Source of the DNA: Vicinamibacterales bacterium
Lineage (GTDB): Bacteria > Acidobacteriota > Vicinamibacteria > Vicinamibacterales > JAMQPK01
Assembly (NCBI GenBank): GCA_963850725.1
Contig: CAWKMQ010000031.1
Span: 4,221 to 68,220 of the forward strand
Direction: 5' to 3'
Length of the DNA stretch: 64,000 nt
The first letter of the stretch is position 1; each line of letters starts with the position of its first letter. Position numbers and translations under genes: made by a program. This document shows positions 1 to 52,364 of the stretch, piece after piece. The notes beneath the pieces were generated by a model, which saw only the letters and a program-made list of their open reading frames with translations, searched no databases and had not been told where the DNA came from.

Positions 1-915
1 CCGGCGCGCTTTTTCTGGTGACGGGCCGCTACAAGCCGGTCGAAGTCGGATCCACGCTGATGGTGGCGATGTTCACGCTCAGCACGATCGTCGCCATGAT
101 CGCGCTGCAGTGGACGCCCTATCGGGTCTCGTCGGCCGAGATTGCCGAAGGGCTTCGGTTCAATCTGCCGCCTCGTTCACAGTGGCGTTCGCGGCATTCG
201 GCATTACCGGCGTCGGCGCGTCCGAGCTCGATCTACTACCCGTACTGGTGCCTGGAAAAAGGCTACGCGAGGCACGTCGGTGCCCGAGACGACTCTCCGG
301 CATGGCGTGCGCGTCTTGCTGGATGGCTCCGGGTGCTTCATACCGACGCGGGACTGTCGCTGGTGATCTACACCGGCGCCACGCTGGCGTTCTACATTCT
401 GGGTGCCGCCGTTCTGCATGGCCAGGGCATGCAGGTGACCGATCGCGAGCTGATCGAGACCCTCAGGCAGATGTACGAGCAGACGCTCGGCGCGACAGGC
501 GCCTGGATATTCCTCGTCGGCGCGTTTGCCGTTCTCTACTCGACCTTCTTTGTCGCCACGGCGTCGAACGCGCGTCTGTTCGCCGACGCCGCGCAGCTCT
601 TCGGTCTGACGCGCTATCGCGATGACGCCGCTCGACTGCGCATGGTACGGGCGGCGTGCGTCGGCCTGCCCATCGCTCTGCGCGGCCGTCTACTTTCTGT
701 TTCCACAACCCGTCGTGCTGGTTCTGATTGGCGCGATCGGCCAGGGCCTGATGCTGCCGTTTCTCGGCGGTGCCACGCTGTATTTCCACCACACACGCCT
801 GGCCGGCGTCATCGAAAGCAGCACCATGTGGGCGGTCTGCCTCTGGCTGGCCGCTCTCTCGATGATGCTCGCCGGCGGCTATCAGCTGGTACAGACGCTT
901 CGGCCGCTGTTATGA
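1..915 (+). pseudogene. Nramp-family divalent metal transporter, C-terminal part (5' end outside window); reading frame changes at least 3 times
   Basis: TM-rich translation. Motifs FGITGVGASEL and IYYPYWCLEKGYA sit in different frames (ORFs 18.., 110..625, 622..915), with switches near 170, 235 and 660. The stop overlaps the next start (ATGA at 912-915). Confidence 0.55.
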
Positions 916-1868
916 AAGAACCCGGGCTGGAGGATATCTACCGTGCCCGCGCGGCGCTGACGGGCCTCGTGTCGCCGACGCCGCTCATGCGTCATCCGCT
1001 GCTCGCCGCGGAGACCGGCCTCGACATCTACGTCAAACACGAAAATCACAATCCCACGGCGGCCTTCAAGATTCGTGGAGGGCTCAACCTGATTGGCTCG
1101 CTCACCGCCGACGAGCGCCGTCGCGGCGTGATTACGGCCAGCACGGGCAATCACGGCCAGTCGATCGCCTTCGCCTCGGAACGTCTGGGCGTCTCGTGCA
1201 TCGTCGCCGTTCCGCATGGCAACAACCCCGAGAAGAACGCGAAGATTCGGGCGTTCGGCGCCACGGTGGTCGAACATGGCAACGACTTCGACGACGCGCG
1301 CGAGTGGGTGGAGCGAGAGGCGGAAGGGACCGGACGCCGCTACGTGCACTCGGCGAACGAGCCGATGCTCATCGCGGGAGTCGGCACCTACGCCCTCGAG
1401 ATTTTCGACGCGCTTCCGGATCCTGACGTCATTCTCGTGCCGATCGGCGGCGGCAGCGGCGCCTGCGGCTGCTGCATCGTGCGAACGGGCCTCGGCAAGG
1501 CCACGCGCGTCATCGGCGTGCAGGCGCTCGAAGCGGACGCCTTCGCGCGCTCATGGCGCGGACCCGAGCGCGTCTCGGCGGACCGCATCGGCACCTTTGC
1601 CGAGGGCCTGGCGACGCGTTACACGTTCGATCTCACCTTCGGCATTCTCAAGCGCGAGCTCGACGACATCGTGACGCTGACCGAAGCAGAGCTGGAGGAA
1701 GGCGTCCGGCTGGCGATGCGCGCGACGCAGAATCTCGCCGAGGGCGCCGGCGCGGCGTCTTTGATGGCCGCCGTGAAGATGCGCGATCAACTTTCCGGCA
1801 GAAAGATCGTGTGCGTGATGAGCGGCGGCAACCTGAGCATGTCCGCGTTACGGCGCATCATCGCTTGA
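912..1868 (+). CDS. PLP-dependent threonine/serine dehydratase (threonine ammonia-lyase family)
   Basis: In-frame ATG at 912 inside ORF 18..1868. Motifs HENHNPTAAFKIRGG, TASTGNHGQS and PIGGGSGACG are typical of the fold-type II PLP dehydratase family. About 318 aa. Confidence 0.9.
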   Translation: MKEPGLEDIYRARAALTGLVSPTPLMRHPLLAAETGLDIYVKHENHNPTAAFKIRGGLNLIGSLTADERRRGVITASTGNHGQSIAFASERLGVSCIVAVPHGNNPEKNAKIRAFGATVVEHGNDFDDAREWVEREAEGTGRRYVHSANEPMLIAGVGTYALEIFDALPDPDVILVPIGGGSGACGCCIVRTGLGKATRVIGVQALEADAFARSWRGPERVSADRIGTFAEGLATRYTFDLTFGILKRELDDIVTLTEAELEEGVRLAMRATQNLAEGAGAASLMAAVKMRDQLSGRKIVCVMSGGNLSMSALRRIIA

Positions 1869-1875
1869 CGAGTCT

Positions 1876-2130
1876 TCAGTAACGTTCTTGCGCCGCTGCG
1901 TGCGGCCCGTCGCTCCAGTTCCAGCCAGGAGATGTCCATCCGCACCGATCGCACGTGAGCGCCAGCGTTGCGGAGCCCAGCTTGAGATCCTGACGATGAC
2001 CCACCAGGGAGCACAAGGCATGTTTGCAGAGACTCCAGGACCGGGAAAAGATGCCGTCCCGGTAAAGAATTCCGTCCTGGAAAATAATTCCGTGCGTGTC
2101 GGGCGCCAGGCTTCGCGTTTCCATAATCAT
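1876..2130 (-). CDS. hypothetical small protein (84 aa, four Cys)
   Basis: ORF with a GAGGTG Shine-Dalgarno-like motif 5 nt upstream of the ATG. It lies in a patch of visibly lower GC. No family recognised. Confidence 0.35.
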   Translation of the reverse strand: MIMETRSLAPDTHGIIFQDGILYRDGIFSRSWSLCKHALCSLVGHRQDLKLGSATLALTCDRCGWTSPGWNWSDGPHAAAQERY

Positions 2131-2231
2131 TGGAGCACCTCATTTGGGGGGTTCAGTGCAACAGAGCAAACCGCGGACCACTCTCGCACTCCGGAGACCC
2201 TTAAGGTCTGTCCCTAAATGGAGCACACCAC

Positions 2232-3061
2232 TTACCCGATGATCGAGACCATCCGCAACACATGCAGACCGAGAACGCGATCGCCGTTCACCGTTGTCTC
2301 GGCCGCGGCGCGATCGCGATCGATTCCCTTCGTGAAGATGCGCCAGGCAATGTCCTGTGGAATCGTCACGTCAGAGACTTGCCGCCCGCGAGGCGATTCG
2401 ATCAAGACGCCACCGATCGTCGTCGCGAGAGAGATACCAGCTCCCGCCACAATCTCCCGACACGTTGATTCGCAGGTACGTGCCAGCTTCCCCTTGCTGA
2501 TCCCGGTATTGGTACGGCAGCGCACGCATGAAGCAGTCGAGCACCGGATGGTAGAGCTCGGGCGTCATGATGCCGGGCCTGCTGGTCGCAAGCCGGATCT
2601 GCTGCTGGTGATGCCAGCGTTCGGTCAGCTCGCGGGCGGTGTCGAACCAGTTCGGTGACGTCTCGTCGCCGGCCCAGCTCACGGCGAAACCCGCGTCGGC
2701 CATCGGATCGAGCGACTGATGGAACGCGGCGCTCTCTCGCGATGCGACGTCCATCAGCGAAATCAGCACCGGTGGGCTCAACCGGCGGTACATCTCGACG
2801 CCTTCCCGGTTGAGCCGGTTGACGAACGCGACCAGATCCTCGGGCGATCGAATCTGCGGCGGCGGGCCTGGCATGTGCCCATCGCGGACCCGTGAAAGCT
2901 TGCGCAATTGTGTGTCGAGCAGATGACGCGGCCACGTCTCTGACCTTCCAGGCAGGCGCGACCGTCTGCGCCTCCCAGTCAGCCGGCGTGAGCGATCGCA
3001 GCAGCTCAATCAAGCGCGCGTCGACGGGCTCGAGAAGATGGGAAACAAGGATAGGTTTCAC
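2232..3061 (-). pseudogene. DinB / maleylpyruvate isomerase N-terminal domain family protein, two frame changes
   Basis: The N-terminus MKPILVSHLLEPVDARLIELLRSLTPADW (frame of 2402..3061), the middle (2371..3009) and the C-terminus ...VNGDRVLGLHVLRMVSIIG (2232..2525) join into one protein. Switches near 2930 and 2420. GTG start at 3061. Confidence 0.7.
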
Positions 3062-3064
3062 AAT

Positions 3065-3256
3065 GGTTCGTCGGGTTCGTAGAGTTCGTTAGGTTCGTTA
3101 AGTTCGTTCGGTTCGTAGGGTTCGTGTAGTTCGTCGGTTCGTCAGTTCGTGAGGTTCGGCAGGTGCGGAAAGTTCGCACCCTCGGGGTGAATCTGACGAA
3201 CCCACGAACCTGACGAACCTGACGAACTCTACGAACTTTACGAACCCACGAACCCT
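3065..3256. repeat. Inverted short-unit arrays: about 12 units of GTTCGTNNN (3065-3160), apical hairpin GGTGCG-N7-CGCACC (3162-3180), about 7 units of NNNACGAAC (3194-3256)
   Basis: Read directly. Unit length is 8-9 nt with a constant 6-nt core. The two arms are reverse complements of each other. Confidence 0.9.
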
Positions 3257-3268
3257 GTAGGTTTTTAT

Positions 3269-4880
3269 TTAAAACGCTTCCCCGATTCCGATGTTGATCC
3301 GCCAGCGATGATCCTGCGGCTGCCCGTCGATTCTGAGCCCGTCCAGCGGCTTGATCTGATAGCCGAAATCGACACGAATCAGTCCAAACGGCGTGTGCAG
3401 CCTGACGCCGGGCCCGGCATCGTAGAGGAGTTTGTCGAAATGCACGGCCCAGGGATCCTCCCACACATTGCCGGCCTCGACGAACAGGGCACCGGACAGG
3501 CGCGGAAGCAGGCGGAAACGCATCTCGCCTGTCGCCGTCATCATGCCTTTCCCGCCAACCGGCTCGCCCGACGCGGACAACGGGCTGACCTCGTAGACGC
3601 CCCATCCGCGCATCTCGGTCGAGCCGCCGAGAAAAAATCGCTTCAGCAGCGGAATGTCGGCATCGGAGCCGGCCGGATCGATCGCGCCGTAACGGAGGCG
3701 GCCGGCGAACACGAGACGATCGCCCACGGGTGCGGTAGTAGCGGCGCACGTCGCCGATCAGATTGAAGTAGTTGAACGTGCCGGGCATCCAGCCACCCGC
3801 CTGCTCGACGTGCAGCGACGCGCTCTGCACCGGCGGCAGATCCATGCTCGCGACCAGGGACGCCCCGCCAGGATCGGGCGGCGCGATGTGGTGATCGAGA
3901 TCGATCGACCAGGCGCTCAGCATGCCGTCCTGCAATCCCACCAGCGCATCGAGATCGGGGTCGACGTCGCTGCGTTCGAGCGCGACCGCGTATGAGAAGG
4001 TCGTGGCGAGCGACCGCATCCATTGCCACCCGACAGAGGCCTGGCCACCGCGCGACATCACGAGAAACGAGCCTTCGTCGATTTCCTGCTGACGCGCCTG
4101 CAGCCCCAGCGACAGCTTCGGATGCCACGCCTCGGTCTGCGTAAACGCCACCTCACCGGTCTGCTCGATGTGCGAGATGCGGCCCTGCAGATCGAGCCGC
4201 CGGGCGGCTCCCAGAAAGTTCAGATTGCTGATCCGTCCGTCCAGACCGAGCCGCTCGCCCGCCGCGTAGCTCATCGACAGATTCCACTGCCACGGGTTCT
4301 GCTCTTCCACCGTGATCAGCGTCGGCACTTCCGCCGGCTGATTGTCGATGTCGTGCGCTCGAATCTCGACCGACTTGAACAGGCCGAGCGTGCCGATCCG
4401 CTGCTGAGTTCTCTCAATCGCGCTGCGGCGAAACAGGTCGCCAGGCGCGTAGGCCACCCGCCTTCGAATGATGGCATCGTCGATGCGCCGATTGCCCGCG
4501 ATGTCGATGCGCCCGAAATACCCGAGCGTGCCCGGCTGCGCGCGCATGACGATGCGTGAGTGTGTCGCGTCGATGGGCTCGCGCGCGAGGCTGACCTGGC
4601 CGTATGGATAGCCGGAGTTCTGCAGGATCTCGACAGCCCGCTCGCCCGCGGTCTGTTCGAGCTTGTCGGTCAGCGTGTCGCCGGCGCGAATCGGCAGCTC
4701 GCGCTCGAGATTCTCGCGTGTCGCGGCGGGCAGGACATCGAATCCCTCCAGGCGAACGCTTTCGACCGCCACGGGCGGGGCCGCGCCGACATTCGGCGGA
4801 GCGTGACGGCAGGCGGCAAGGGACGAAGCGGCGATGGCCAGCGCACACACGCGCCAGACGCGCATGAACCGAGCGTACAC
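3269..4880 (-). CDS. BamA/TamA-family outer membrane protein (POTRA plus surface antigen D15 barrel), one frame change near 3730
   Basis: The N-terminal 380 aa come from ORF 3006..4880 (signal/lipobox-like LAAC, POTRA-like region). The C-terminal barrel comes from ORF 3269..3727 and ends in ...INIGIGEAF. An alternative ATG start lies at 4865. Confidence 0.8.
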
Positions 4881-4918
4881 AAAAAAAGAGGGCGGGTCTA
4901 AAGAACAAGACCCGCCCT
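4881..4918 (-). terminator. Rho-independent terminator downstream of the DUF1552 gene
   Basis: On the minus strand: AGGGCGGGTC, a 10-nt loop, GACCCGCCCT, then T7 (A-run 4881-4887 on plus). Confidence 0.7.
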
Positions 4919-4958
4919 ACGCTACTATTCCTACTACCTTCTACTTTCTACTTACCAG
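4917..4958 (-). repeat. GTAG-rich short-unit array (GTAGAAA/GTAGAAG/GTAGTAG) between the stop codon and the terminator hairpin
   Basis: Minus strand reads ggtaaGTAGAAAGTAGAAGGTAGTAGgaataGTAGcGTAG. The same array-plus-GGGCGGGTC-hairpin module recurs at 37553-37620. Confidence 0.8.
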
Positions 4959-4960
4959 AT

Positions 4961-6250
4961 CTACACCAATTCGTGCATCTTCTCTTCCGCCGTCGGGAAG
5001 TCTTTGCCGAGCCTGGTCTTGAGCACTTCCTCGACAAGCGTCAGGTAGACGTCGCCGACGCTGTTGTGCGTCTTCGTGTGCGTGTTGCCCTTGATGCCGC
5101 CGCCCGCCACGAGCATCGCCAGCCCGTTGCACTTGTGCGGATCGGCTTCCGCGTGCTCGTGCACGAACACCGTCGCGGTGTTGTCGAGCAGGTTGCCATC
5201 GCCTTCGGGCACGGCCCTCAGGCCTTCGAGCAGATACGCGTACTCCTCGACGAACCACCGGCAGATGTCGCGCATGATGCGCTGCTGCGCCGGCGTGCCC
5301 GCGTTGGTGTGGGTGTAATCGTGATGCCGGTTGTCCGAGTGTCCGAGCCACGGGAATCGCGTCAGGCTCTGGCACTTGGTCAACATGTACGACGCCACGC
5401 GAGTCTGGCCCGACGCGAACGCGTGAATCAGCAGGTCGGACTGAATCTTCGCGATCTTCGGATAGTCGGTGAGATCGGTGATGTCCTCGGGTTCCTTGAT
5501 CTGCTGGCCGTAGTCGGGCGGCAGGCTGGCAATGGCGCGCTCGAGATCGCGCACCGACGTCAGGTGCTGGTCGAGCCGCTGCTGATCGGCGGCGCCGAGC
5601 ACCGGCTTCAGCGCGTTCACATCGCCGCTGACGAGATCGAGCACGCTCTTCTTGCGATTCACCCAGCCCTCGTCCCTGACGCCGAACAAGCGGTCGAACA
5701 GGTTGTGAGGGATATGTTCCTGAGGCAGCGCGCGCTCGTAGCCCGCCCACGTCATGTTGCGATGGACGTTTTCGCCGTGCGATTCCTGCGCGACGCCGAT
5801 CTGCAGCGAGCGGAAACGGGTCTTCGTCCCGATCTTGCCGGCGAGGATCTGATCGATGGACGGTCCCGCGGCGCCACGGCCCGTGTAGGCGGTGCCGGTC
5901 ATGAGGCCGCACAGCGCGCTGAAGTGCCCGTTGCCCTGACCGTTGAGGCGGGCGGCGACGTTATCGACGCCGCTGAGCACGTGCACGTATTCGCGCACGC
6001 GGCCGAGTGGCGAGAGGCACGCCGTCAGCTCGTAGTTCTCTCCCGTCTCGCGGGGAATCCAGTAGCGCTCGGGGATGCCGTTGCCGTTCCACCAGATCAG
6101 GAAACGCTTGTCGATGGCGGCCGTCTTCCCCAGTTCGGCCGCGTAGGCCGTGCCGTTCATGTTGAACATGGCCGCGAGCGGCGGAAGCCCAACCTGGACC
6201 GCCGCGCCGGTCATGCTGATGCCTCTAAGGAACGTGCGTCTACTGAGCAT
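4961..6250 (-). CDS. DUF1552 domain-containing protein (Tat-type signal)
   Basis: Intact 429-aa ORF. N-terminal RRTFLRG twin-arginine motif. GGAGG Shine-Dalgarno 5 nt upstream. Classic partner of the DUF1592-type protein immediately upstream. Confidence 0.9.
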   Translation of the reverse strand: MLSRRTFLRGISMTGAAVQVGLPPLAAMFNMNGTAYAAELGKTAAIDKRFLIWWNGNGIPERYWIPRETGENYELTACLSPLGRVREYVHVLSGVDNVAARLNGQGNGHFSALCGLMTGTAYTGRGAAGPSIDQILAGKIGTKTRFRSLQIGVAQESHGENVHRNMTWAGYERALPQEHIPHNLFDRLFGVRDEGWVNRKKSVLDLVSGDVNALKPVLGAADQQRLDQHLTSVRDLERAIASLPPDYGQQIKEPEDITDLTDYPKIAKIQSDLLIHAFASGQTRVASYMLTKCQSLTRFPWLGHSDNRHHDYTHTNAGTPAQQRIMRDICRWFVEEYAYLLEGLRAVPEGDGNLLDNTATVFVHEHAEADPHKCNGLAMLVAGGGIKGNTHTKTHNSVGDVYLTLVEEVLKTRLGKDFPTAEEKMHELV

Positions 6251-6263
6251 ACCTGCCTCCGAA

Positions 6264-6283
6264 GGCTCGGCTGAAGCCGAGCC
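6264..6283 (-). repeat. REP-like GCTGAAGC-core hairpin, intercistronic
   Basis: GGCTCGGC-TGAA-GCCGAGCC lies between the DUF1592 stop (6284-6286) and the GGAGG Shine-Dalgarno (6256-6260) of the DUF1552 gene. Confidence 0.7.
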
Positions 6284-8296
6284 CTACCTGGTTGTCCATT
6301 GTCTCAGGAATTCGGGCGATTGCACCAGCGCAACCAGCAGGCTCTTGAACTTGAACCCCGAGCCCTTGAACTGGTCGTACAACTGATCGATGGTCTTCTC
6401 GTCGGCGTTGGTTTCGAGCCTTCCATAGGAGTATCGGAACATCTGCCGCACGATGCATTTCTGACACACAGGGCTGTCGGCCAGAATGCCGCCTATCTGC
6501 TTCGCCCCTGAGAAGCCCGAGTCCGGGATCCCCGCGATCTCTCCCTGCGCGTTGATATCCACCTGAATCGGCGGAGGACCGCCCCGGCCCCCGCCACCAC
6601 CGCCGCGCCGTCCGGGCACCGGAATCGCTTCCGTTTGACGGTACCGCCCGATCGCGTCGAAGTGCTCGAAGCCAAAGCCGATCGGATCCATCAGCCGATG
6701 GCACGACGCGCAGGTCGCATTCTCGACGTGTTCGACCATCAGTTGCCGGCGGCCTTTCGCGGGCCCATCCGTGAGCGGATCCGGCAGCGTCGTGATGACA
6801 CCGGGGGGCGGCGGCGGCACGTGCTGGCACAACAGGCGCTCGCGGATGAAGATGCCGCGGGCCGTCGGCGACGTGTCGGTCGGTCCGGCGGTCGACGCCA
6901 GGAATGTGCCCTGTCCGAGAATGCCCGCACGCTGCGAGTCGGATGGGAACTTCACCATCTCGAACTGATCTTTCGGTGCAGGCACGCCGTAGATCTCGGC
7001 AAGCTCCGACGTCAGGAAGCTGTAATCGGCCGTCAACGCTTCCATGAAATTGCGGTCGTTCCACACCAGGTGGTGCAGCATCGTGCGCGTCTCTTCGGCC
7101 ATCGCCAGCGCCAGCTCGGGCGTGAACTCACGATAGCGGCCCGACTTCACGGCATTGACGACGCGATCGAAGCGCAGCCATTCTTCGAAGAACTGATCGA
7201 GCGCCTGACGGCCCTTCGGCACGTTCTCGATGAGACGCCGCGCCGCGCGCTCGCGTCCCGCCGGCGTGCTCAACTCGCCCTTGGCCGCTGCTTCGAACAG
7301 CGCCTCGTCGGGCATCGTGTTCCACAACAGGTACGACAGCCGGCTGGCGATGTCGTAGTCCGCGTAGCGGCCGTCGAGGCCCGCTTCGACGTGGAAGAGG
7401 AAGTTCGGCGACTGCAGCATCGCCTCGACCACGACACGCGCACCGTCGTTGAAGCGCTTGCCCACACCCGCCTGCTGGGCAAACACCGCCGAGTACCGCT
7501 TCACTTCGTCGTCGCTCAGCGGACGCCGGAATGCGCGCAATCCGAAACGGCGGACGAACGCGTCGCGGCACTTCGCGTCGCTGAACGAGGCCGGCTTGCA
7601 TGGAATCAGCCCGTTGACGTCGCCGATGCGGAACGCGTTCAGCGCGAGCTTCTCGGCCGACGTGCTGTAGGTCTCGACGAGCAGCGGCGGCATGCCCTGC
7701 CCGGTCAGCTGATTCTTGAAGCCGTCGACGTAATCCTCCGGCGGAAATCGCTCGGCCGGGCGGCTGTAGTCGCCGAGCAGATCGCGCACGGTGTTGTCGT
7801 ACTGCGAGTGCGTCAGCCGCCGGACGAGCTGTTTCGGCGCCGACTCTCCCTCGCTCTCCAGCAGCTTCTTGGTGATGGCCGCGAGCGCGACGTCCGATGT
7901 GGAGGCCAACGAGACGGCCCATTTCGACACGATTTGTTCTTCGGGCGATCCGGGCTTGATGCGAACGCCACCGGTATGCCGAATCGTGTTGGTCGGCTTG
8001 GCCAGAATCAGCGACTGCGACGGGTTGGAGCGATCGACGAGGGCCGCGAGCGAGAGGCCGAACGCCTGAACCTCGGCTGCCGGCGCGTCCTTGTCGGGAA
8101 AATGCAGCCGCGTGGCCGATGCCACACCAGACGAGGTATGGCACCCGCTGCATTTCGCGGCCTCGAACACCGGCATCACCTGGGTTTGAAAGAAGACGGG
8201 ATCCGGCGCGGCGCCCTGCGCCTGCGGGTGCGGAGCGGTGACGAGGAGCCCGATGAGAATGGCGGCGAGCGAGAGACCCGCGATGCGGAATGTCAT
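6284..8296 (-). CDS. DUF1592/DUF1588/DUF1587/DUF1585/DUF1595-type protein with N-terminal cytochrome-c-like CxxCH
   Basis: Intact 670-aa ORF. Signal peptide, CSGCH near the N-terminus, a second CASCH. Architecture typical of the Planctomycete-type PSCyt-like family paired with DUF1552. Confidence 0.85.
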   Translation of the reverse strand: MTFRIAGLSLAAILIGLLVTAPHPQAQGAAPDPVFFQTQVMPVFEAAKCSGCHTSSGVASATRLHFPDKDAPAAEVQAFGLSLAALVDRSNPSQSLILAKPTNTIRHTGGVRIKPGSPEEQIVSKWAVSLASTSDVALAAITKKLLESEGESAPKQLVRRLTHSQYDNTVRDLLGDYSRPAERFPPEDYVDGFKNQLTGQGMPPLLVETYSTSAEKLALNAFRIGDVNGLIPCKPASFSDAKCRDAFVRRFGLRAFRRPLSDDEVKRYSAVFAQQAGVGKRFNDGARVVVEAMLQSPNFLFHVEAGLDGRYADYDIASRLSYLLWNTMPDEALFEAAAKGELSTPAGRERAARRLIENVPKGRQALDQFFEEWLRFDRVVNAVKSGRYREFTPELALAMAEETRTMLHHLVWNDRNFMEALTADYSFLTSELAEIYGVPAPKDQFEMVKFPSDSQRAGILGQGTFLASTAGPTDTSPTARGIFIRERLLCQHVPPPPPGVITTLPDPLTDGPAKGRRQLMVEHVENATCASCHRLMDPIGFGFEHFDAIGRYRQTEAIPVPGRRGGGGGGRGGPPPIQVDINAQGEIAGIPDSGFSGAKQIGGILADSPVCQKCIVRQMFRYSYGRLETNADEKTIDQLYDQFKGSGFKFKSLLVALVQSPEFLRQWTTR

Positions 8297-8297
8297 G

Positions 8298-9512
8298 TCA
8301 TTCCTCGATGACGGGTTTTTCGGCCGTCAATGATGCCCCGCGCGGTTCCGGACGCCTTGCCCACGACACGAACGTATTGGGATGCGCTTTCCGAAAAGCA
8401 TTCGCCGCTTCCGGCGTGACCCTGGTTTCGGTGATGTAGAGATACTTCAGATGCGGCAGCTTGCCCAGCCGCTGCAGACCCTGGTCGCCAATCTGCGTGT
8501 ACGACAGGTCGAGATACGTCAGCGTCGGCATGCCCGCCAGCACATCGCCCGTCGCATCGTCGAGCGACGTGGCCGCAAAGAGATTCAGCCGATCGAGCGG
8601 CAGCGAGCGCAGCGTCCTCAACCCTTCCGGCGACAGACGCGCGCCGCTGATGTTGAGGCGCTTCAGGTTCTTCAGCCTGGCGAGCTTCGCCACGCCGAGA
8701 TCGCTGATCTGCAGCCCGCCGGTGAGCCGGCAGTTGCCGCCGCCGGGCGCCGCGGGCTGTCCACCCATGCCGAGCTTGATGCCAACGCCGAGATCGAGCT
8801 CTTCGAGGCCGCTCAGCAGCGAAATCGTGTCGAGATCGAGATCGGTGACGTTCGGCGTCCAGCACGCGCCGGCGTTGCGCCGCTGCACGCCATTCAGGCT
8901 CAGCGACTTCAGTTTCGGCAGCAGCTTGAGGAAGTTCAGGTTGAGCCCGGTGATCAGCGTCGCGCCGATCTTCAGCGTCTCGAGCTGGCTGAGATTCGGC
9001 AGGTTCTCGAGGCCCACGTCGCCGAGCATCGTGTAACTGATATCGAGGTAGCGCAGCCCCGTCATCTCACCCACATACGGCATGCCGGCGTCCGTGATAT
9101 CGACGCCGCGCACGACCAGCCGCTTCAGCGCGCGGTTCGCGCGCAGGTGCGCCATCGACGCATCGGTCAGGAACTCGGCCGTGTCGAGCGTGAGATCTTC
9201 GAGCTGCTGCAGCGCCTGCAGCTTCTTGATCCCCTTGTCGGTGACGTAGGTGAACGACAGGTCGAGCTTCTTCAGCGTCTTGAGCGCGACGATGAAATCG
9301 ATGTCGTTGTCGGTCGCCCACGTCCGTTCCAGCGACGCTTCGACGATGACGCCGCTCTTGTCGCGCACGACCCAGCCGCCACGCTGCTCGATTCGCTCGA
9401 GGGCATACGTCACCTCGGGAGAATCCTTCGTGGACGCCTGTGCCAGCGCATCGGTCGCGCTGCCAAGCGCAGCGGTCAACACCACCGCCGCAACGAATGC
9501 TCTGAGATACAT
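8298..9512 (-). CDS. secreted leucine-rich repeat (RNI-like LRR) protein
   Basis: Signal peptide MYLRAFVAAVVLTAALGSATDALA, then about 24-aa repeats LxxLxxLxLxxTxITDxGxxxL. The stop is 1 nt from the DUF1592 start. The ORF track start of 9545 would overlap the upstream gene. Confidence 0.85.
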   Translation of the reverse strand: MYLRAFVAAVVLTAALGSATDALAQASTKDSPEVTYALERIEQRGGWVVRDKSGVIVEASLERTWATDNDIDFIVALKTLKKLDLSFTYVTDKGIKKLQALQQLEDLTLDTAEFLTDASMAHLRANRALKRLVVRGVDITDAGMPYVGEMTGLRYLDISYTMLGDVGLENLPNLSQLETLKIGATLITGLNLNFLKLLPKLKSLSLNGVQRRNAGACWTPNVTDLDLDTISLLSGLEELDLGVGIKLGMGGQPAAPGGGNCRLTGGLQISDLGVAKLARLKNLKRLNISGARLSPEGLRTLRSLPLDRLNLFAATSLDDATGDVLAGMPTLTYLDLSYTQIGDQGLQRLGKLPHLKYLYITETRVTPEAANAFRKAHPNTFVSWARRPEPRGASLTAEKPVIEE

Positions 9513-9516
9513 GCGG

Positions 9517-11634
9517 CTATGTCCTCCGCCGTGCGCGGCTCGCATCGAGGCTCCAGTTGATCTCGGCCTTCGGCAGGGCCTTGCGAATGCTGTTGAACCC
9601 CTGTTCGGTCAACTGGGTGTGATAGAGATCGAGATACTTCAGATTCGTCTGGCCGGCGAGCCACGTCAGCGACTTGTCCGTCACGTCGGTCCGATCGAGC
9701 CTGAGCTCGGTAAACGCGTGATTGTTCGCGAGCAGCGCGAGCCCGGCGTCGCTCACCGGCGTGTAGTTCAGGTTCAGCGCTTCGAGCTTCGGCAGCTTCG
9801 CCACCCAGGCCATGCCCGTGTCGGTGATGCTCGTCTGCTCGAGGCCGAGACGCTTCAATCCCGTGAGCTTCGTGATCATTTCCAGACCGGGCTCGGCAGA
9901 CCGCGTGAAACTCAGGTCCAGATCTTCGAGCGCGGACAACGACGCGAGCGCCGCAATTCCCTTTTCGGTTATGTCCACCGACGTCAGGTCGAGCCGCTTG
10001 AGGTTCTTCAGGGCCGCGAAGTGCCCCGTGCCGGCGTCGGTGATGTCGGTATGGCGCAGGTTGAGCGACTCGAGGCCCGTCAACTGCGCCAGTTGTTCCA
10101 TGCCCTCGTCCGCGATTGGCGAATTCCCGAGATCGAGCTCGCGAAGGTTCGAAAGCGCCTTCAGCGACGCGAGGCCGGTACCTTCCACGAGCGTGCTCGG
10201 CATGTGAAGCGCGCGCAGATTCGTGAGCGAGGCGAGCATCGGCAGCGCATTGTCGCCGAGCAGCGTGTGCCCGAGGTCGAGGCGCTCCAGCGTGCGAATC
10301 GCGGCCAGTTGTTCGAGGCCGATTGTGCTGACCTCGGTATGTTGCAGGCTCAGCTGCGTCAACTGCGGCAGCTTGCCGAGCACGACGAATTCCCTGTCGG
10401 TAATCGACGTGCCGTTGAGAGAGACGGCGGTGATCTTGCCGTCGGCCATCTGCACCTTGCCGCCGATGGCGCGGAGCCATTCGCTGACGGCCGCGTCGCC
10501 CCTGGTCGCGACATCCGAGGCCGCCATCGCCCGCTTCGGTTCGCGCTGCGAAGACTCGAGCATGAAGAGCTCGGTTTTGGGCAGCTTCGCGGCCAGGTCG
10601 CGCACACCCGCGGTCGTCACGCGGCTGTAGCGCAGATCGACGGTCCGGAGATTCGTCAGGCCGGCCAGCTTCGCGAGGCCCGCGTTGGTCACCTTCGTCC
10701 GGTACAGGCTGAGCTCTTCGAGCGCCGTCATGCTCTTCAGCGCGTCGAGGCCGGCATCGGTCACATCGGCGCTTTGCAGGTTCAGGCGGCGCAGCTTCGT
10801 CAGCTTCGACAATGCCGCAAGCCCTTGATCGGTCATCGACACGTCCGACAGGTCGAGCTCGACCAGGTTGGTCAGATCGGAGAGGTTCTGGATGCCGGCA
10901 TCCGTGATGGACGTGCCGCGCAGATACAACCGCTGCAGCGTCGTCTTCCCTTTCAGGCCGGCCATGCCCGAATCGTTGAACGTGACCACGTAGTTCAAAT
11001 CCAGGTGCGTCAGCGGAAAGGCCGCCAGCGACATACCCGAGCTGCGCGTCTGGTGAATGCGTACTTCCTTGAGGTCGGGCAACGACGTGAGCGTCTTCAG
11101 CGCGAGATCGTTGAAGGGGATATAGGTCTGGACGGGCTTGCTCATCACGAACTTCTCGAGCTCTTTCGCTTCGCTGAAGAGCGCGATGGTGGCCTGGACG
11201 CGCGGCGCCGGCTGGTCGTACCAGAGCCGGCCGTTGATGTACAGCTCCTTGAGATGCGGAAGGGGCGGCAGTTTCCGCAGCTCGTCCTGTAACGACGCGG
11301 CGTACATCGTGATGCCGGTGAAGTTCAGCGTGTGTATCTGGAAGTCGGTCGTGGGAAGGTCGGCCAGATCGGTAATCGGCTTGCGCTGCCCTTCGAGCAC
11401 GATGCTGCCGCCCATGCGGAGCATCCACTCCGCCACCATGCGATCGGCAGCGGGGCCTTCAATCTTCGAGGGTCGGGGGCCCGCCACACCGAACGCCGGG
11501 CCTTCGACAGGTTTGCCGGGCTCTTCGGCGGGTTGCTGCGCCGCCAGGGCCACCGGAACGAGCATCGAGACAAGGAGCGCGGCAATCGCCTGACGCCCAC
11601 GAAATTTTCGGGGAAGCTTGTACCCAACGGTCAT
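9517..11634 (-). CDS. secreted leucine-rich repeat (RNI-like LRR) protein, two LRR modules
   Basis: Intact 705-aa ORF with a signal peptide. There are two modules. Each opens with a xxEWLxxxGGxV motif and is followed by many 24-aa LRRs (TDAGL/TDQGL). Confidence 0.85.
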   Translation of the reverse strand: MTVGYKLPRKFRGRQAIAALLVSMLVPVALAAQQPAEEPGKPVEGPAFGVAGPRPSKIEGPAADRMVAEWMLRMGGSIVLEGQRKPITDLADLPTTDFQIHTLNFTGITMYAASLQDELRKLPPLPHLKELYINGRLWYDQPAPRVQATIALFSEAKELEKFVMSKPVQTYIPFNDLALKTLTSLPDLKEVRIHQTRSSGMSLAAFPLTHLDLNYVVTFNDSGMAGLKGKTTLQRLYLRGTSITDAGIQNLSDLTNLVELDLSDVSMTDQGLAALSKLTKLRRLNLQSADVTDAGLDALKSMTALEELSLYRTKVTNAGLAKLAGLTNLRTVDLRYSRVTTAGVRDLAAKLPKTELFMLESSQREPKRAMAASDVATRGDAAVSEWLRAIGGKVQMADGKITAVSLNGTSITDREFVVLGKLPQLTQLSLQHTEVSTIGLEQLAAIRTLERLDLGHTLLGDNALPMLASLTNLRALHMPSTLVEGTGLASLKALSNLRELDLGNSPIADEGMEQLAQLTGLESLNLRHTDITDAGTGHFAALKNLKRLDLTSVDITEKGIAALASLSALEDLDLSFTRSAEPGLEMITKLTGLKRLGLEQTSITDTGMAWVAKLPKLEALNLNYTPVSDAGLALLANNHAFTELRLDRTDVTDKSLTWLAGQTNLKYLDLYHTQLTEQGFNSIRKALPKAEINWSLDASRARRRT

Positions 11635-11790
11635 GCTGGTCTCCGTGGTGTTGAGCCTTCAATTGTAGTGGAAAGGGCCTGTTTCGTGGGCGTTTTCAGG
11701 GGTTTTCGGGCGCCGGACAGCGTGCGTTTTTGTATCATTTTGTGGCGTGCGCTCGCCACGGTCTTTCGTCTTGGCTCGTACGCCTCGGCG

Positions 11791-12198: not shown

Positions 12199-12228
12199 GT
12201 GGACGAATAGTACAGCGTGTTCGGCGCG

Positions 12229-14485: not shown

Positions 14486-14552
14486 CCGCGTAAGAGTGTA
14501 TCCGCATCGAGGACGCCGGATCGGTTGTCGCAAAATGTTCTCGCGCAAGGCG

Positions 14553-15611: not shown

Positions 15612-15623
15612 GGTGAGATTTTA

Positions 15624-16269: not shown

Positions 16270-16435
16270 GGTTCGTGGGTTCGTCAAGTTCGTTGAGGTT
16301 CGTGAGGTTCGTGGGTTCGTCGGGTTCGTGGGTTCGTCGAGTTCGTGCGGTTCGTGGAGTCCCGTGACCGAATCGCGTGGGCCGCGACCTCACGAACCTG
16401 CGAACTCACGAACCCCACGAACCCACGAACCCAGG
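16270..16435. repeat. Second inverted short-unit array: about 10 units of GTTCGTNNN (16270-16357) facing about 5 units of ACGAAC (16388-16432)
   Basis: Read directly. Same core, unit length and orientation logic as 3065-3256. It fills the gap between the DUF1501 stop (16441) and the MOSC start (16241). Confidence 0.9.
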
Positions 16436-16440
16436 TTCTT

Positions 16441-19173: not shown

Positions 19174-19250
19174 GGTTCGGCAGTTCGGAGATTCCGGAGC
19201 TAGGCGAACTCTTCGAAACGAACTCCTCGACTGACGAACCTGACGACTCG
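19174..19250. repeat. Short degenerate copy of the GTTCG / CGAAC inverted array
   Basis: ggttcggcagttcggag ... cgaactcttcgaaacgaactcctcgactgacgaacctgacgactcg. It lies downstream of the hydrolase gene and upstream of the DUF1800 start. Confidence 0.7.
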
Positions 19251-41365: not shown

Positions 41366-41409
41366 CCGAACCTCACGAACTAGACGAACCTCACGAACCC
41401 ACGAATCCG
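41366..41409. repeat. Orphan half-array, ACGAAC orientation only (about 5 units)
   Basis: ccgaacctcACGAACtagACGAACctcACGAACccACGAAtccg, between convergent genes. Confidence 0.8.
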
Positions 41410-51590: not shown

Positions 51591-51634
51591 GGTTCGTGGG
51601 TTCGTCAGGTTCGTCGGGTTCGTCGGATTCGTGG
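51591..51634. repeat. Orphan half-array, GTTCGT orientation only (about 5 units)
   Basis: GGTTCGTGGGTTCGTCAGGTTCGTCGGGTTCGTCGGATTCGTGG, starting 11 nt after the stop codon. Confidence 0.85.
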
Positions 51635-52364
51635 GCTCCGTACGGACTCTCGGACTCCTACGACTCCTGGACTCCTAGACTCCAAGACTCCAGGACTTCT
51701 AGACTCTCCCGCGCCTTTGAATTGATCCTCCTCGTCTGCGAACAGCACGTTGAAGCTCGTCAGCGATCCGTAACATCCCGTGACGTAGCCCTGCAGCTTG
51801 ACCTTCACATCTTCCGGCAGCTCGGCGGCGTTCACCTGCTGCTCGAGCGATCGCAGCCGGTTGCGCAGCATCACGATCTTGTGGAAGAACGTTTCGATCG
51901 GGCAGGCTTTTCTCCTGCAGCCCCGGCGTGCCGGGGCGCAGCACGAGCGTGCCGCCGCGCCACTTCTCGGCGGGCGTGACCGCGGTAATCCCACACTCTT
52001 CGCGAATGACACGGCGGATCAACAACTCGAGATCGACGGATGCATCAGATGCCATGGCTGGTGCGACCCTTTCGCGATCGCTGACGATAGGAAATGGCTC
52101 GCCCCCGGCTTGTGCCTGAGCGGCTCGGCGCGGCGCCGGCGCGGACGGGGTCGAGACAGGGCTGAAGCCCTGTGCCACCGCGCTCTGCGTATTGATTCTC
52201 GGGCCGCCGCGATAGTTGTGCTCGCTTCCGCAGAAGCCGCAGACCACGCGGATCGGCTGCCCCTGCGGGTCGGCGGCCACGACAGTGTGTTGCCGATCGG
52301 TCTTGCATGCGCGGCAGTAATCTTCGAGCGACTCGCCGGCGCGGTACGAGCGGACGGGTGACAT
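51605..52364 (-). CDS. zinc-ribbon protein with conserved C-terminal domain of unknown function, one frame change near 51905; apparent tail read from repeat arrays
   Basis: N-terminus CRACKTD...CGFCGSEHNY (ORF 51699..52376). The C-terminal domain ...FFHKIVMLRNRLRSLEQQVN...LTSFNVLFADEEDQF lies in ORF 51605..52012. No stop occurs until 51605, inside the arrays. Confidence 0.6.
51645..51708. repeat. GACTCCN short-unit array (about 8 units)
   Basis: ggactctcggactcctacgactcctggactcctagactccaagactccaggacttctagactctc, directly following the GTTCGT half-array. Confidence 0.85.
52156..52178. repeat. REP unit ACAGGGCTGAAGCCCTGTGCCAC located inside a coding region
   Basis: Identical to 49935-49957. 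It is read in frame on the minus strand as VAQGFSPV in the linker of the zinc-ribbon protein. Confidence 0.85.

What the first reader, a model, noticed from the sequence alone, without database searches (positions are those of the whole stretch)
3065..3256. Giant slippery hairpin: about 12 GTTCGTNNN units face about 7 NNNACGAAC units and fill a stop-to-start gap
The left arm (3065-3160) is a tandem array of 8-9 nt units with a constant GTTCGT core and a variable 2-3 nt tail. The right arm (3194-3256) is the reverse-complement array. A small apical hairpin GGTGCG-N7-CGCACC (3162-3180) sits between them.

Every unit shares the same core, so the arms can pair in many registers.

The element occupies almost the whole gap between the stop of the BamA-like gene (3269) and the GTG start of the DinB-like gene (3061; 3 nt separate the array's first G from that start). 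There is no room for a Shine-Dalgarno.

The same architecture recurs at 16270-16435. Partial copies lie at 19174-19250, 41366-41409 and 51591-51634.

All 11 short-unit arrays I found in the window lie downstream of a stop codon. This counts the GTTCGT family plus the GGAACC, CACGGAG, GTAGAAA, GACTCC and TCAGT types. None lies in the five divergent promoter gaps (21017-21089, 40128-40415, 41943-41992, 45059-45554, 55243-55640).

I do not recognise this as a described repeat class. The units are too short and unspaced for CRISPR, there is no fixed palindromic REP consensus, and there are no discrete terminal repeats as in a MITE.
Basis: partly seen in the sequence, partly recalled or inferred. 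Interest (0 to 1): 0.75.

Follow-up and report, generated by a model that had tools for sequence, protein, structure and literature searches.

The report
Head-to-head short-repeat arrays at gene ends
The "giant hairpin" is real: two independent runs of an 8-9-base repeat (GTTCGT core) face each other in a gap that is absent in close relatives. It belongs to a repeat class already described in Xanthomonas and cyanobacteria, whose function is still unknown.

Summary
At 3065-3256, about 11 R-GTTCGT-N-R(R) units face 7 reverse-complement units around a small apical hairpin. The pattern GTTCGTNNNGTTCGT occurs 21 times in the window against 0.01 expected. Folding z-score is -9.

The window is a Vicinamibacterales (Acidobacteriota) genome. 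At least 10 species of that order carry the same arrays with mixed 8/9-nt spacing.

The two arms are independent tandem arrays, not mirror copies. Their variable tails do not correspond, unit numbers differ, and one head-to-head pair uses two unrelated units. The G/T-rich strand almost always points to the centre (GTTCGT family 19:0).

Arrays lie a median of 14.5 nt from a stop codon. They occur in 58% of convergent, 21% of tandem and 6% of divergent gaps.

Both two-armed copies in the window fill stop-to-start junctions that in close relatives overlap by 4 nt (97.6% identical contig) or span 30 nt with a single GTTCGT. One filled/empty pair has 99.4-100% identical flanks.

The same distribution and convergent pairing were published for GGGAATC heptamer repeats in Xanthomonas and Nostoc. 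This is therefore a new, non-G-quadruplex variant of a known but unexplained class. A role as an intercistronic or 3' RNA hairpin is inferred only.

The parts
3065..3164 (+). Left arm: about 11 units R-GTTCGT-N-R(R). There are 10 perfect cores at 3066-3150; the units nearest the centre are degenerate. This arm is G/T-rich on the + strand. On the minus-strand mRNA it is the 3' arm (ACGAAC units), and it ends 3 nt before the start of the DinB-like gene.
3162..3180 (.). Apical hairpin GGTGCG-N7-CGCACC inside a 45-nt centre. The first 23 nt of that centre are homologous (22/23) to the centre of the orthologous element in metagenome contig L133.
3189..3256 (+). Right arm: about 7.6 units with 7 perfect ACGAAC cores at 3196-3253. 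On the minus-strand mRNA this is the 5' arm (GUUCGU units). It starts 14 nt after the Omp85 stop codon.
3269..4880 (-). Omp85/POTRA outer-membrane protein gene upstream of the element, with its TAA stop at 3271-3269. It looks frameshifted because of a 1-nt insertion at about 3726 relative to two Illumina contigs.
2371..3061 (-). Downstream gene, DinB-like by its N-terminal sequence; Pfam found no family. Its GTG start is at 3061-3059. It looks frameshifted because of 1-nt insertions at 2927 and 2408 relative to three Illumina contigs.
16270..16433 (.). Second two-armed GTTCGT element: 10 left-arm units and about 5 right-arm units. It lies between the DUF1501 stop (16441-16443) and the MOSC start (TTG at 16269-16267, abutting the array). 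In a 97.6%-identical contig these two genes overlap as GTGA.
19174..19250 (.). Decayed two-armed element of the related unit AGTTCGG / CGAACT. The 95%-identical relative L084 has AGTTGGC and GTCGACT arms here, plus a central array of about 9 copies of the 20-nt unit GTCGACGGTCTCGGTCGATC.
41367..41405 (+). One-armed array of about 4.4 units (3 perfect ACGAAC cores) in a convergent gap, 9 nt from the stop of the minus-strand MarR-family gene. In that gene's sense it reads GTTCGT.
51591..51706 (.). Heterotypic head-to-head pair. A GGTTCGT array (51591-51632) lies 10 nt after the stop of the + strand gene. A GGAGTC-unit array (51644-51706, read on the minus strand) overlaps the stop of the minus-strand ORF 51699-52376. 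The two arms are not complementary.

Best explanation
**What it is.** The feature is one locus of a family of long-unit simple-sequence arrays found across the Vicinamibacterales. The unit is R-GTTCGT-N-R(R), 8 or 9 nt. It is the acidobacterial counterpart of the heptamer arrays of Xanthomonas and Nostoc and of cyanobacterial STRR.

**How it is built.** Each arm is its own tandem array. Arrays grow and shrink in blocks of 1-3 units by slipped-strand mispairing or unequal exchange. The arms sit head-to-head, with the G/T-rich strand running 5'->3' away from the neighbouring ORF and towards the centre of the gap.

**Consequence of pairing.** When both arms carry the same unit, either transcript (and single-stranded DNA) folds into a long bulged hairpin. 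The stem is made of 6-7-bp core helices separated by unpaired tails, so it can pair in many registers.

**History at this locus.** The element occupies what was a short spacer or a 4-nt stop/start overlap between two co-transcribed, translationally coupled genes.

**Inferred, not shown.** A self-pairing insert is tolerated here because the stem base brings the upstream stop codon and the downstream start codon back together, so a terminating ribosome can still open and use the start. At gene ends in general the arrays act as tunable 3'-UTR or intercistronic spacers and RNA hairpins, comparable to REP elements, rather than as canonical terminators. The cause of the fixed polarity and of the small repertoire of unit motifs shared between species is not explained.
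For: **Shown: taxon and distinctness.**
- Among 118 loci from a 4-unit scan of 185,579 species genomes, the loci with mixed 8/9-nt spacing and facing arms come from 10 Vicinamibacterales species. Only 13/53 of their arrays are strictly 9-periodic, against 85/90 arrays in other taxa.
- L084 is 95.5% identical to window 12915-20839.

**Shown: unit anatomy.**
- Of 333 units, 66% are 9 nt and 31% are 8 nt. Core positions are 81-94% conserved. The first tail position is nearly random and the last is always a purine.

**Shown: growth by local duplication.**
- Adjacent tails are identical in 18% of cases against 5.9% for random pairs.
- TRF finds higher-order periods of 17, 18 and 27.

**Shown: arms are independent.**
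- Tails of the two arms show no correspondence in any register in 18 elements (combined p about 1), and unit numbers are unequal.
- A heterotypic pair exists at 51591-51706.

**Shown: polarity.**
- The G/T-rich arm comes first in 24 of 25 two-armed pairs. For the GTTCGT family the count is 19:0.
- Twelve of 14 single GTTCGT arrays have the 5' end of the G/T strand nearer to an ORF.

**Shown: location.**
- Median distance to a facing stop codon is 14.5 nt. Arrays occur in 19/33 convergent, 38/183 tandem and 2/34 divergent gaps.

**Shown: turnover.**
- Omp85->DinB junction: L124 has a TTGA overlap; L122 and L123 have a 30-nt spacer with one GTTCGT; L133 and the window are filled.
- L123 and L133 flanks are 99.4-100% identical.
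- The window and L133 centres are homologous.
- DUF1501->MOSC junction: L258 (97.6% identical) and L259 overlap by 4 nt. L260 carries a two-armed element of another unit. The window and L084 are filled, with different unit counts.

**Shown: not a canonical terminator.**
- No T-run follows either hairpin. The only canonical terminator in 1-20000 is at 4918-4889.

**Basis for the coupling inference.**
- In both window elements the MFE stem extends to pair the stop-codon flank with the start-codon flank.
- By my count from the distances, about 9 of 14 two-armed elements in tandem gene contexts fill the gap to within about 25 nt on both sides.

**Same class in the literature.** PMC4692102.
Against: - No expression data exist. 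Transcription, hairpin formation in vivo and coupling are all untested.
- Plain slippage does not explain why the same few unit motifs recur at non-orthologous loci in 10 species while individual arrays turn over fast. Examples are GTTCGT, CACGGAG, GAAAGTA, AGGGCTN, ATGGCAG and GGTTCC.
- Plain slippage also does not explain why the core is conserved while the tails are free, or why the polarity is so strict.
- Two non-orthologous elements (L009, L094) share a 30/32-nt centre. That points to some dissemination of whole elements.
- Two elements lie in divergent gaps about 10 nt upstream of start codons. A 3'-UTR role does not fit there.
- Presence/absence between near-identical strains suggests the element is dispensable.
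- Gene calls in the related loci come from my own crude codon-bias caller, and those loci were ascertained through GTTCGT arrays.
Confidence: 0.6

Rival explanations
1. Non-autonomous mobile element (MITE- or REP-like). The two-armed unit is mobilised as a whole by a trans-acting enzyme. The arrays are its terminal inverted repeats, and they then diversify quickly by slippage.
For: - Filled and empty alleles occur with 99.4-100% identical flanks: L133 against L123.
- An empty allele (L258) is closer to the window (97.6%) than the filled relative L084 is.
- Short direct repeats lie at the junctions and would allow clean loss: TGA...TGA at 16270-16435; CGAG...CGAG and GTG...GTG in L133.
- L009 and L094 lie at non-orthologous loci in two genomes yet share 30/32 nt of their central hairpin.
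- The CACGGAG-type arrays have fixed outer ends, GTCTCAA...TTGAGAC. At 21845-22250 they enclose a truncated PDDEXK_3 gene.
Against: - There is no full-length consensus. Among the 20 centres, the only similarities beyond short (10-16 nt) matches are between orthologous loci, plus the single L009/L094 pair.
- The arms are not mirror images.
- One-armed and heterotypic pairs are common.
- No consistent target-site duplication is seen. The window's main element has none.
- The 30-nt 'empty' site already contains one GTTCGT.
- No transposase was linked to the arrays, and none could be tested for.
Confidence: 0.15
2. The hairpin itself is the selected product: a factor-independent terminator or a barrier to 3' exonucleases, as proposed for REP/BIME. 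The tandem units are only the way it is built.
For: - The folds are very stable.
- Arrays are strongly enriched in convergent gaps, 58%.
- GAAAGTA arrays sit directly next to a canonical terminator hairpin at 4889-4955 and 37545-37620.
Against: - Tails do not co-vary between arms, arm lengths differ, and no U-run follows.
- Heterotypic and one-armed arrays follow the same placement and polarity rules without being able to form the hairpin.
- The element sits inside operon-like junctions where termination would silence the downstream gene.
- Near-identical strains lack it.
Confidence: 0.15
3. DNA-level arrays of binding sites for a motif-specific protein, such as a nucleoid-associated, partition-like or ribbon-helix-helix protein that reads 7-9-bp direct and convergent repeats.
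For: - A 6-7-nt core is conserved within free tails.
- The same motif persists across 10 species despite array turnover.
- The strict convergent polarity recalls the omega repressor of pSM19035. That protein binds heptad arrays and prefers direct and convergent over divergent orientation (own knowledge).
Against: - About ten unrelated unit families follow the same rules, which would need as many proteins.
- The orthologous site carries different units in different lineages.
- The 9-bp phasing does not match the helical repeat.
- No candidate protein was identified.
Confidence: 0.07
4. Assembly or sequencing artefact of a long-read assembly.
For: The window carries single-base insertions relative to Illumina contigs at 3726, 2927 and 2408, and probably near 16262.
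Against: - The orthologous filled element is present in an Illumina metagenome contig (L133).
- The same kind of array occurs in megahit and SPAdes MAGs (L064, L039) and in 10 independent genomes.
Confidence: 0.01

Closest known systems
GGGAATC / GGGGA(C/T)T heptamer repeat arrays of Xanthomonas and Nostoc (Rehm et al. 2015, PLoS One, PMC4692102)
   Same: - Tandem arrays of a short unit, spread over the genome and mostly intergenic.
[quoted passage not shown] In other words, the 5' end of the G-rich strand is next to an ORF.
- There are 70-75 convergent plus/minus pairs per Xanthomonas genome, able to form stem-loops.
- Repeat length and sequence vary between close relatives while the site is kept.
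- Function is unknown.
   Different: - The unit here is 8-9 nt, with a fixed 6-7-nt core and a free tail.
- It has no G-tracts, so no G-quadruplex is possible.
- Arrays are longer, 5-17 units rather than a preference for 4.
- About ten unit families coexist in one genome.
- The phylum is Acidobacteriota.
STRR (short tandemly repeated repetitive) heptamers of heterocystous cyanobacteria, and TAACTGA repeats of Beggiatoaceae, cyanobacteria and Bacteroidetes (MacGregor 2015, PMC4679880)
   Same: - A few unit families are shared by many loci and species.
- They are intergenic and often lie within a few nucleotides of a start codon.
[quoted passage not shown]
- No mechanism of spread is known (STRR from own knowledge and as cited).
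   Different: These are heptamers with perfect units. Facing arms are not the rule. TAACTGA repeats lie mainly upstream of starts rather than after stops.
REP / BIME extragenic palindromes of enterobacteria and pseudomonads
   Same: Both are extragenic, lie at gene 3' ends or between genes of an operon, are transcribed as RNA hairpins, and show presence/absence between strains (own knowledge).
   Different: REP is a fixed 20-40-nt imperfect palindrome with a consensus, linked to RAYT transposases. Here there is no fixed palindrome. The stem is built from tandem units, and the arms are independent.
MITEs (for example Correia, ERIC, RUP)
   Same: Both are small, non-coding, have inverted ends, are intergenic, are polymorphic between strains, and can be co-transcribed.
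   Different: MITE copies share a full-length consensus and have target-site duplications. Here only the unit motif is shared. Centres differ and no consistent duplication is seen.
Uptake sequences (DUS/USS) in inverted pairs downstream of genes
   Same: A short motif is conserved across a clade, dispersed over the genome, and often found in inverted pairs at gene 3' ends (own knowledge).
   Different: DUS/USS occur as single 9-12-mers, not as tandem arrays. Nothing is known about competence in Vicinamibacterales.
CRISPR arrays
   Same: Both consist of regularly spaced repeats.
   Different: CRISPR repeats are 23-50 nt and are separated by unique spacers of similar size. Here a 6-nt core is separated by 2-3 nt, and the arrays occur at many loci.

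Membership tests
Long-unit intergenic SSR arrays (Xanthomonas/Nostoc heptamer class, STRR-like) | Head-to-tail iteration of a 5-11-nt unit at many loci in the genome | tested here: met
   TRF arrays. There are 59 perfect-core GTTCGT arrays in 34 sources. The window holds 5 GTTCGT-type loci in 64 kb.
Long-unit intergenic SSR arrays (Xanthomonas/Nostoc heptamer class, STRR-like) | Intergenic; rare between divergent ORFs; close to ORF ends | tested here: met
   Arrays occur in 19/33 convergent, 38/183 tandem and 2/34 divergent gaps. Median distance to a stop is 14.5 nt. Gene calls come from my own codon-bias caller.
Long-unit intergenic SSR arrays (Xanthomonas/Nostoc heptamer class, STRR-like) | G-rich strand oriented with its 5' end towards the neighbouring ORF; paired arrays are convergent | tested here: met
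   24 of 25 pairs; GTTCGT family 19:0. Single GTTCGT arrays 12:2; all single arrays 20:10, not significant.
Long-unit intergenic SSR arrays (Xanthomonas/Nostoc heptamer class, STRR-like) | Copy number and sequence vary between close relatives at a conserved site | tested here: met
   Window against L084. Window, L122, L123 and L133. L258, L259 and L260.
Long-unit intergenic SSR arrays (Xanthomonas/Nostoc heptamer class, STRR-like) | Heptamer unit with a G-tract; G-quadruplex potential with a preference for four units | tested here: not met
   The unit is 8-9 nt and has no run of 3 or more G in its core. Arrays have 4-17 units. It therefore belongs to the wider class but not to the G4 subfamily.
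REP/BIME | Fixed imperfect palindrome of 20-40 nt with a family consensus | tested here: not met
   Only the 6-7-nt core is shared. Centres are unrelated and arms are not mirror images.
REP/BIME | Association with a RAYT (Y1) transposase gene in the genome | not testable with these tools
   Only 64 kb of the genome is available, and no whole-genome gene content could be retrieved.
MITE | Copies share a full-length consensus with terminal inverted repeats and target-site duplications | tested here: not met
   There is no shared internal sequence beyond orthologues, short (10-16 nt) matches and one pair, L009/L094. No consistent duplication is seen at the polymorphic sites.
Intrinsic (Rho-independent) terminator | G+C-rich stem-loop followed directly by a U-run | tested here: not met
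   The scan of 1-20000 finds no terminator-like site at 3065-3256 or 16270-16435. The sequences after the stems are CATTGTG and CTTGTAC.
CRISPR | Repeats of 23-50 nt separated by unique spacers of similar length | tested here: not met
   A 6-nt core is separated by 2-3 nt.
Any Rfam family | Match to a curated covariance model | tested here: not met
   No match at gathering score over the whole window. No match at E <= 1 for 2950-3350.

The most novel reading that the evidence does not exclude
**The reading.** The arrays are made and maintained by an active, motif-directed process, not by passive slippage. A trans-acting enzyme would recognise a short core such as GTTCGT and add or duplicate 8-9-nt units directionally at the edges of short intergenic spacers. 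Candidates are a nuclease or recombinase making 8-9-nt staggered cuts that are filled in, or a polymerase adding units to 3' ends at breaks.

**What it would explain.**
- The result always looks like a head-to-head telomere fusion, with the G/T-rich strand running 5'->3' into the centre.
- The same few motifs persist across species while individual arrays turn over.
- Tails vary while cores do not.
- Near-identical strains differ by whole elements with clean junctions.
- A centre is shared at non-orthologous loci.

**Wider reach.** Non-G4 units here obey the same rules as G4-forming heptamers in Xanthomonas and Nostoc. The process would therefore be general to several phyla, and G-quadruplexes would not be its cause.
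Probability: 0.12. Interest if true: 0.85.

Novelty: new variant of a known kind. Interest (0 to 1): 0.5.

Why it matters
- Intergenic long-unit repeat arrays have been noted since 1990 in cyanobacteria and since 2015 in Xanthomonas. Their origin, their function and their odd polarity remain unexplained.
- This family extends the class to Acidobacteriota, one of the most abundant and least studied soil phyla.
- The unit cannot form a G-quadruplex, yet it obeys the same placement and orientation rules. That argues against the G4 explanation proposed for the known members.
- The comparisons give unusually clean natural experiments. The same stop/start junction is found overlapping, with a single seed unit, filled with GTTCGT arrays, or filled with a different unit. 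Filled and empty alleles occur on 99-100% identical flanks.
- These alleles make three questions directly testable: how the arrays arise and are lost, whether they affect translational coupling and mRNA 3' ends, and whether a trans-acting factor exists.
- Practically, the arrays are hypervariable markers. They are also a source of mis-called ORFs in high-GC metagenome-assembled genomes: my own caller placed an ORF across the left arm in L094.

Tried and rejected
- **Rfam.** Nothing was found at gathering score for the whole window, nor at E <= 1 for 2950-3350.
- **tRNA/tmRNA.** None in the window.
- **Exact look-up of a window protein**. It is not on record. The window's genome is not in that collection, or its proteins differ through indel errors.
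- **Orthologues via the DUF1552 neighbour**. Synteny downstream is not kept, so this was uninformative for the element.
- **Viral-contig scan** with a pattern forcing one 8-nt spacing. The pattern was badly designed: almost all 77 hits are the tetranucleotide repeat (GTTC)n. Nothing was learnt about phages. Only L198, L210 and L215 might be worth a look.
- **'Spanned by a long open frame'** as a test for coding arrays. It does not discriminate in 65-70% GC DNA. I used strict 9-periodicity instead.
- **Gradient of core decay along arrays**. It is confounded by the flanks I included, so it is not used.
- **Cargo ORF between distant GTTCGT arms** in L042 7126-7666. No convincing ORF.
- **Other PDDEXK_3 genes next to arrays** in the loci held. 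None in Vicinamibacterales loci, so the association could not be tested.
- **Literature string search** for GTTCGT-array sequences, and for Vicinamibacter or Acidobacteria repeats. Nothing specific.
- **Considered and rejected:** CRISPR, iterons or a replication origin (too many loci), type III antitoxin RNA repeats (units too short), and coding tripeptide repeats (mixed 8/9 spacing breaks every frame).
Full report
**1. The observation**

- Tandem Repeats Finder reports 11.3 copies of a 9-nt unit at 3065-3164 and 7.6 copies of its reverse complement at 3189-3254.
- There are 10 perfect GTTCGT cores at 3066-3150 and 7 perfect ACGAAC cores at 3196-3253, spaced 8 or 9 nt.
- GGTGCG-N7-CGCACC lies at the apex.
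- GTTCGTNNNGTTCGT occurs 21 times in the window against 0.01 expected from dinucleotide-preserving shuffles.
- The minus-strand RNA folds at -101.9 kcal/mol against -58.3 for shuffles, z = -9.1. Single-stranded DNA gives z = -9.3.
- Twenty-five alternative arm registers are found, and the MFE structure holds only 0.5% of the ensemble. 'Slippery' is therefore a fair word.
- The Omp85-family gene (Pfam Omp85 and POTRA) stops at 3269-3271.
- A second two-armed copy lies at 16270-16433. One-armed copies lie at 41367-41405 and 51591-51632.

**2. Source organism, and whether the array is real**

- Loci from 10 Vicinamibacterales (Acidobacteriota) MAG species have mixed 8/9-nt spacing and facing arms.
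- Arrays in other taxa are almost all strictly 9-periodic: 85/90, against 13/53 in Vicinamibacterales. That is what in-frame tripeptide repeats would give, so they are a different thing.
- L084 (MAG MFD02242.bin.1.84) is 95.5% identical to window 12915-20839. The window therefore comes from a close relative.

The window has single-base insertions relative to two or three independent Illumina metagenome contigs at 3726, 2927 and 2408. It has an extra base relative to L084 at about 16262-16266. The apparent frameshifts in the Omp85, DinB-like and MOSC genes are thus most likely residual long-read errors.

The arrays themselves are confirmed by an Illumina contig with the orthologous element (L133). 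They are also confirmed by short-read MAGs (L064, L039).

**3. Anatomy of the unit and of the arms**

From 333 units in 59 arrays:
- The unit is R-GTTCGT-N-R(R); 66% are 9 nt and 31% are 8 nt.
- Within TRF-defined arrays the first five core positions are 91-94% conserved and the sixth is 81% conserved.
- The first tail base is nearly random. The last tail base is always G or A.
- Neighbouring units share a tail three times more often than random pairs, 18% against 5.9%.
- TRF sees higher-order periods of 17, 18 and 27. This is the signature of duplication in blocks of one to three units.

The two arms are not mirror copies. In 18 two-armed elements, the tails of one arm and of the reverse-complemented other arm correspond no better than shuffled tails in any register. 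Unit numbers also differ, for example 11 against 7, 10 against 5 and 17 against 12. The stem is therefore a string of 6-7-bp core helices separated by internal loops.

At 51591-51706 a GTTCGT array faces a GGAGTC-unit array. The second array belongs to the convergent minus-strand ORF 51699-52376. This is a head-to-head pair that cannot pair at all.

**4. Rules of placement**

I trained a simple codon-bias gene caller on the window and 32 Vicinamibacterales loci: 316 kb, 283 genes. I then placed the 101 non-coding arrays of 5-12-nt units.
- Arrays occur in 19/33 convergent gaps, 38/183 tandem gaps and 2/34 divergent gaps.
- Fisher's test for 3'-end-containing gaps against divergent gaps gives p = 0.008.
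- The median distance to a facing stop codon is 14.5 nt.
- The two divergent cases are genuine. In L106 the element lies 9 nt upstream of a glycogen-synthase-like start. In L094 it lies about 10 nt upstream of a peptidase start.

In two-armed elements the G/T-rich arm comes first in 24 of 25 cases. For the GTTCGT family, where the scan was strand-neutral, the count is 19:0. This arrangement reads the same on both strands. It means that the G/T-rich strand always runs 5'->3' from the neighbouring ORF towards the centre.

Single GTTCGT arrays follow the same rule 12:2. For all unit types together the count is 20:10, which is not significant.

About ten other unit families obey the same rules in these genomes. 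They include CACGGAG, GAAAGTA, AGGGCTN, ATGGCAG, GGTTCC, GGTTCTN, TAGGGAT and ACTGAAA.

**5. Turnover at orthologous sites: the most informative result**

*Omp85->DinB junction*:
- L124 (86% amino-acid identity) has the stop and start overlapping as TTGA.
- L122 and L123 have a 30-nt spacer with one GTTCGT: TAAcaaaacctcgagGTTCGTgaaaaaccGTG.
- L133 and the window have the full two-armed element.
- More distant relatives carry GGGATTA-type, GATTGG/CCAATC two-armed, or CACGGAG-type arrays after the same stop codon.
- L123 (empty) and L133 (filled) are 99.4% identical in the first 650 nt of the DinB-like gene and 100% identical over the last 300 nt of Omp85.
- The centres of the window and L133 elements are homologous (22/23 nt), although the flanks are only 91% identical.

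The filled allele is therefore old. The empty alleles are either deletions or were brought in by recombination. A GTG...GTG microhomology in L133 would give exactly the L123 sequence.

*DUF1501->MOSC junction*:
- L258 is the closest relative of the window here (97.6% over 1445 nt, no gaps). It has the genes overlapping as GTGA. L259 (76%) overlaps as ATGA.
- L260 (72%) has a 93-nt two-armed element of another unit, GGTGGNT ... CCAACCA, around the hairpin TCCGGC-TTTA-GCCGGA.
- The window and L084 share a homologous GTTCGT element. It has 10 against about 6 left-arm units and different tails and centres, while the flanks are 95% identical.

*Other sites:*
- At 19174-19250 the relative carries about nine copies of a 20-nt unit in the centre.
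- Between the stop of the DUF1552 gene and a conserved canonical terminator (4889-4918), each lineage has a different 7-nt array: GAAAGTA, TTGTAGN, GTTGGTR or CGAAAAA.

**6. What it most likely is and does**

*Shown.* It is a clade-wide family of long-unit simple-sequence arrays. They arise in short spacers at ORF ends, expand and contract quickly, are lost cleanly, and lie head-to-head. The hairpin is a consequence of two like arrays facing each other.

*Inferred.* Both window elements lie in junctions that were stop/start overlaps or short spacers, that is, between translationally coupled genes. The arrays leave 14 and 7 nt after the stop codons, and 3 and 0 nt before the start codons. In both MFE folds the stem continues into a helix that pairs the stop-codon flank with the start-codon flank. 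A self-pairing insert thus keeps stop and start adjacent in space. A terminating ribosome that melts the stem base would free the start. This would explain why a 170-190-nt insert without a Shine-Dalgarno is tolerated.

By my count from the distances, about 9 of 14 two-armed elements in tandem contexts fill the gap to within about 25 nt on both sides.

The arrays are not canonical terminators, because no U-run follows them. Where a canonical terminator exists, the array is the spacer between stop codon and terminator. A REP-like effect on 3' ends or mRNA stability is possible but untested.

**7. What stays unexplained**

Passive slippage does not account for three things:
- the conserved core with free tails;
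- the reuse of the same few motifs at non-orthologous loci in 10 species;
- the strict polarity.

Two elements at non-orthologous loci in different genomes (L009, L094) show no flank similarity by blastn or tblastx. Yet they share 30/32 nt of a central hairpin, so some elements have spread as units.

I therefore give 0.15 to a MITE-like reading. I keep, as the most novel reading not excluded, an active motif-directed process of unit addition. Its products would look like head-to-head telomere fusions.

**8. Comparison with what is known**

Rehm et al. 2015 (PMC4692102) describe GGGAATC arrays in Xanthomonas and GGGGA(C/T)T arrays in Nostoc. Those arrays are:
- intergenic and under-represented between divergent ORFs;
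- within 50 bp of the stop on the coding strand, or of the start on the non-coding strand;
- mostly transcribed;
- variable in length between close relatives at conserved sites;
- in 70 (Xcc) and 75 (Xac) cases paired in convergent orientation, 'always' one on the plus and one on the minus strand, able to form stem-loops.

No function was found. MacGregor 2015 (PMC4679880) describes TAACTGA heptamer arrays just upstream of start codons, in gaps that lack ribosome-binding sites.

The present family meets every class feature that I could test, except the heptamer/G-tract feature. It fails the definitions of REP, MITE, CRISPR and intrinsic terminator, and it matches nothing in Rfam. No paper in the searchable library contains GTTCGT-array strings.

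**9. Verdict**

The finding is real, non-random and correctly delimited. It is not a new class. It is a new, non-G-quadruplex variant of a known but unexplained class, in a little-studied phylum.

Its value lies in three points. Non-G4 units obey the same rules. The arms are shown to be independent. The natural filled, seed and overlap alleles make origin and function testable. Interest is moderate.

Noticed in passing
window 3726, 2927, 2408; about 16262-16266; also 52435-54482: Single-base insertions relative to Illumina metagenome contigs or to L084 split the Omp85, DinB-like and MOSC genes into two frames. A GH13-like (alpha-amylase family, judged by eye) gene at 52435-54482 also switches frame. 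The window looks like a long-read assembly with residual indel errors. The three checked insertions sit in G/C contexts (CCGTGGG, CGCGTC, GGCGTC).
   Followed up: partly
window 21845-22250: Two arrays of the 8-nt unit CACGGAG(N) have fixed outer ends, GTCTCAA...TTGAGAC. They face each other 350 nt apart and enclose a truncated, frameshifted PDDEXK_3 (GxxExxY-type) nuclease-family ORF at 21956-22162 on the minus strand (Pfam E = 3e-15). A short version without cargo lies at 37660-37722. This may be a hairpin element that can carry a small gene.
   Followed up: partly
window 4889-4955 and 37545-37620; orthologous sites in L123, L124, L125, L131, L132: The same terminator stem GGGCGGGTC...GACCCGCCC occurs twice in the window with different loops. 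Each copy lies next to a GAAAGTA array. At the orthologous site upstream of Omp85 the stem and T-run are conserved. The array between stop codon and stem differs in every lineage: GAAAGTA, TTGTAGN, GTTGGTR or CGAAAAA.
   Followed up: partly
L084 6190-6365 (orthologous to window about 19160-19175): The 95%-identical relative has about nine tandem copies of the 20-nt unit GTCGACGGTCTCGGTCGATC inserted in the centre of the decayed two-armed element. The window has none.
   Followed up: no
L130 3447-3855: Downstream of the orthologous Omp85 gene in a 70%-identical relative there are at least three tandem copies of a unit of about 110 nt. Each copy ends in a CTCCGTG-type array plus TTGAGACA.
   Followed up: no
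L070 2459-3659: About 1.2 kb is made almost entirely of 6- and 12-nt units (GGTTCC, CGGTTC, TTCCGG), followed by a GGTTCGT array. My gene caller placed it inside a coding region. It may be a repeat protein or a very large non-coding array.
   Followed up: no
L106 6403-6605 and L094 1764-1940: Two-armed GTTCGT elements lie in divergent gaps. They end 9-11 nt upstream of the start codons of a glycogen-synthase-like gene and an M20-peptidase-like gene (functions judged by eye from the translations). The promoters or leaders of those genes must lie in or beyond the arrays.
   Followed up: partly
window 3057-3085 (+): A sigma-70-like promoter match (TTCACA-17-TAGAGT) overlaps the first units of the left arm and points away from the DinB-like gene. 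It is at chance level: 1 found against 2.1 expected in 20 kb.
   Followed up: no
L198 2665-2750 (viral contig IMGVR_UViG_3300033149_001571, 65% GC): A strictly 8-periodic run of 11 GTTCGT units with TG/GT tails lies in a 68-kb viral contig. It is the only viral hit that resembles the bacterial arrays. The rest are (GTTC)n.
   Followed up: no
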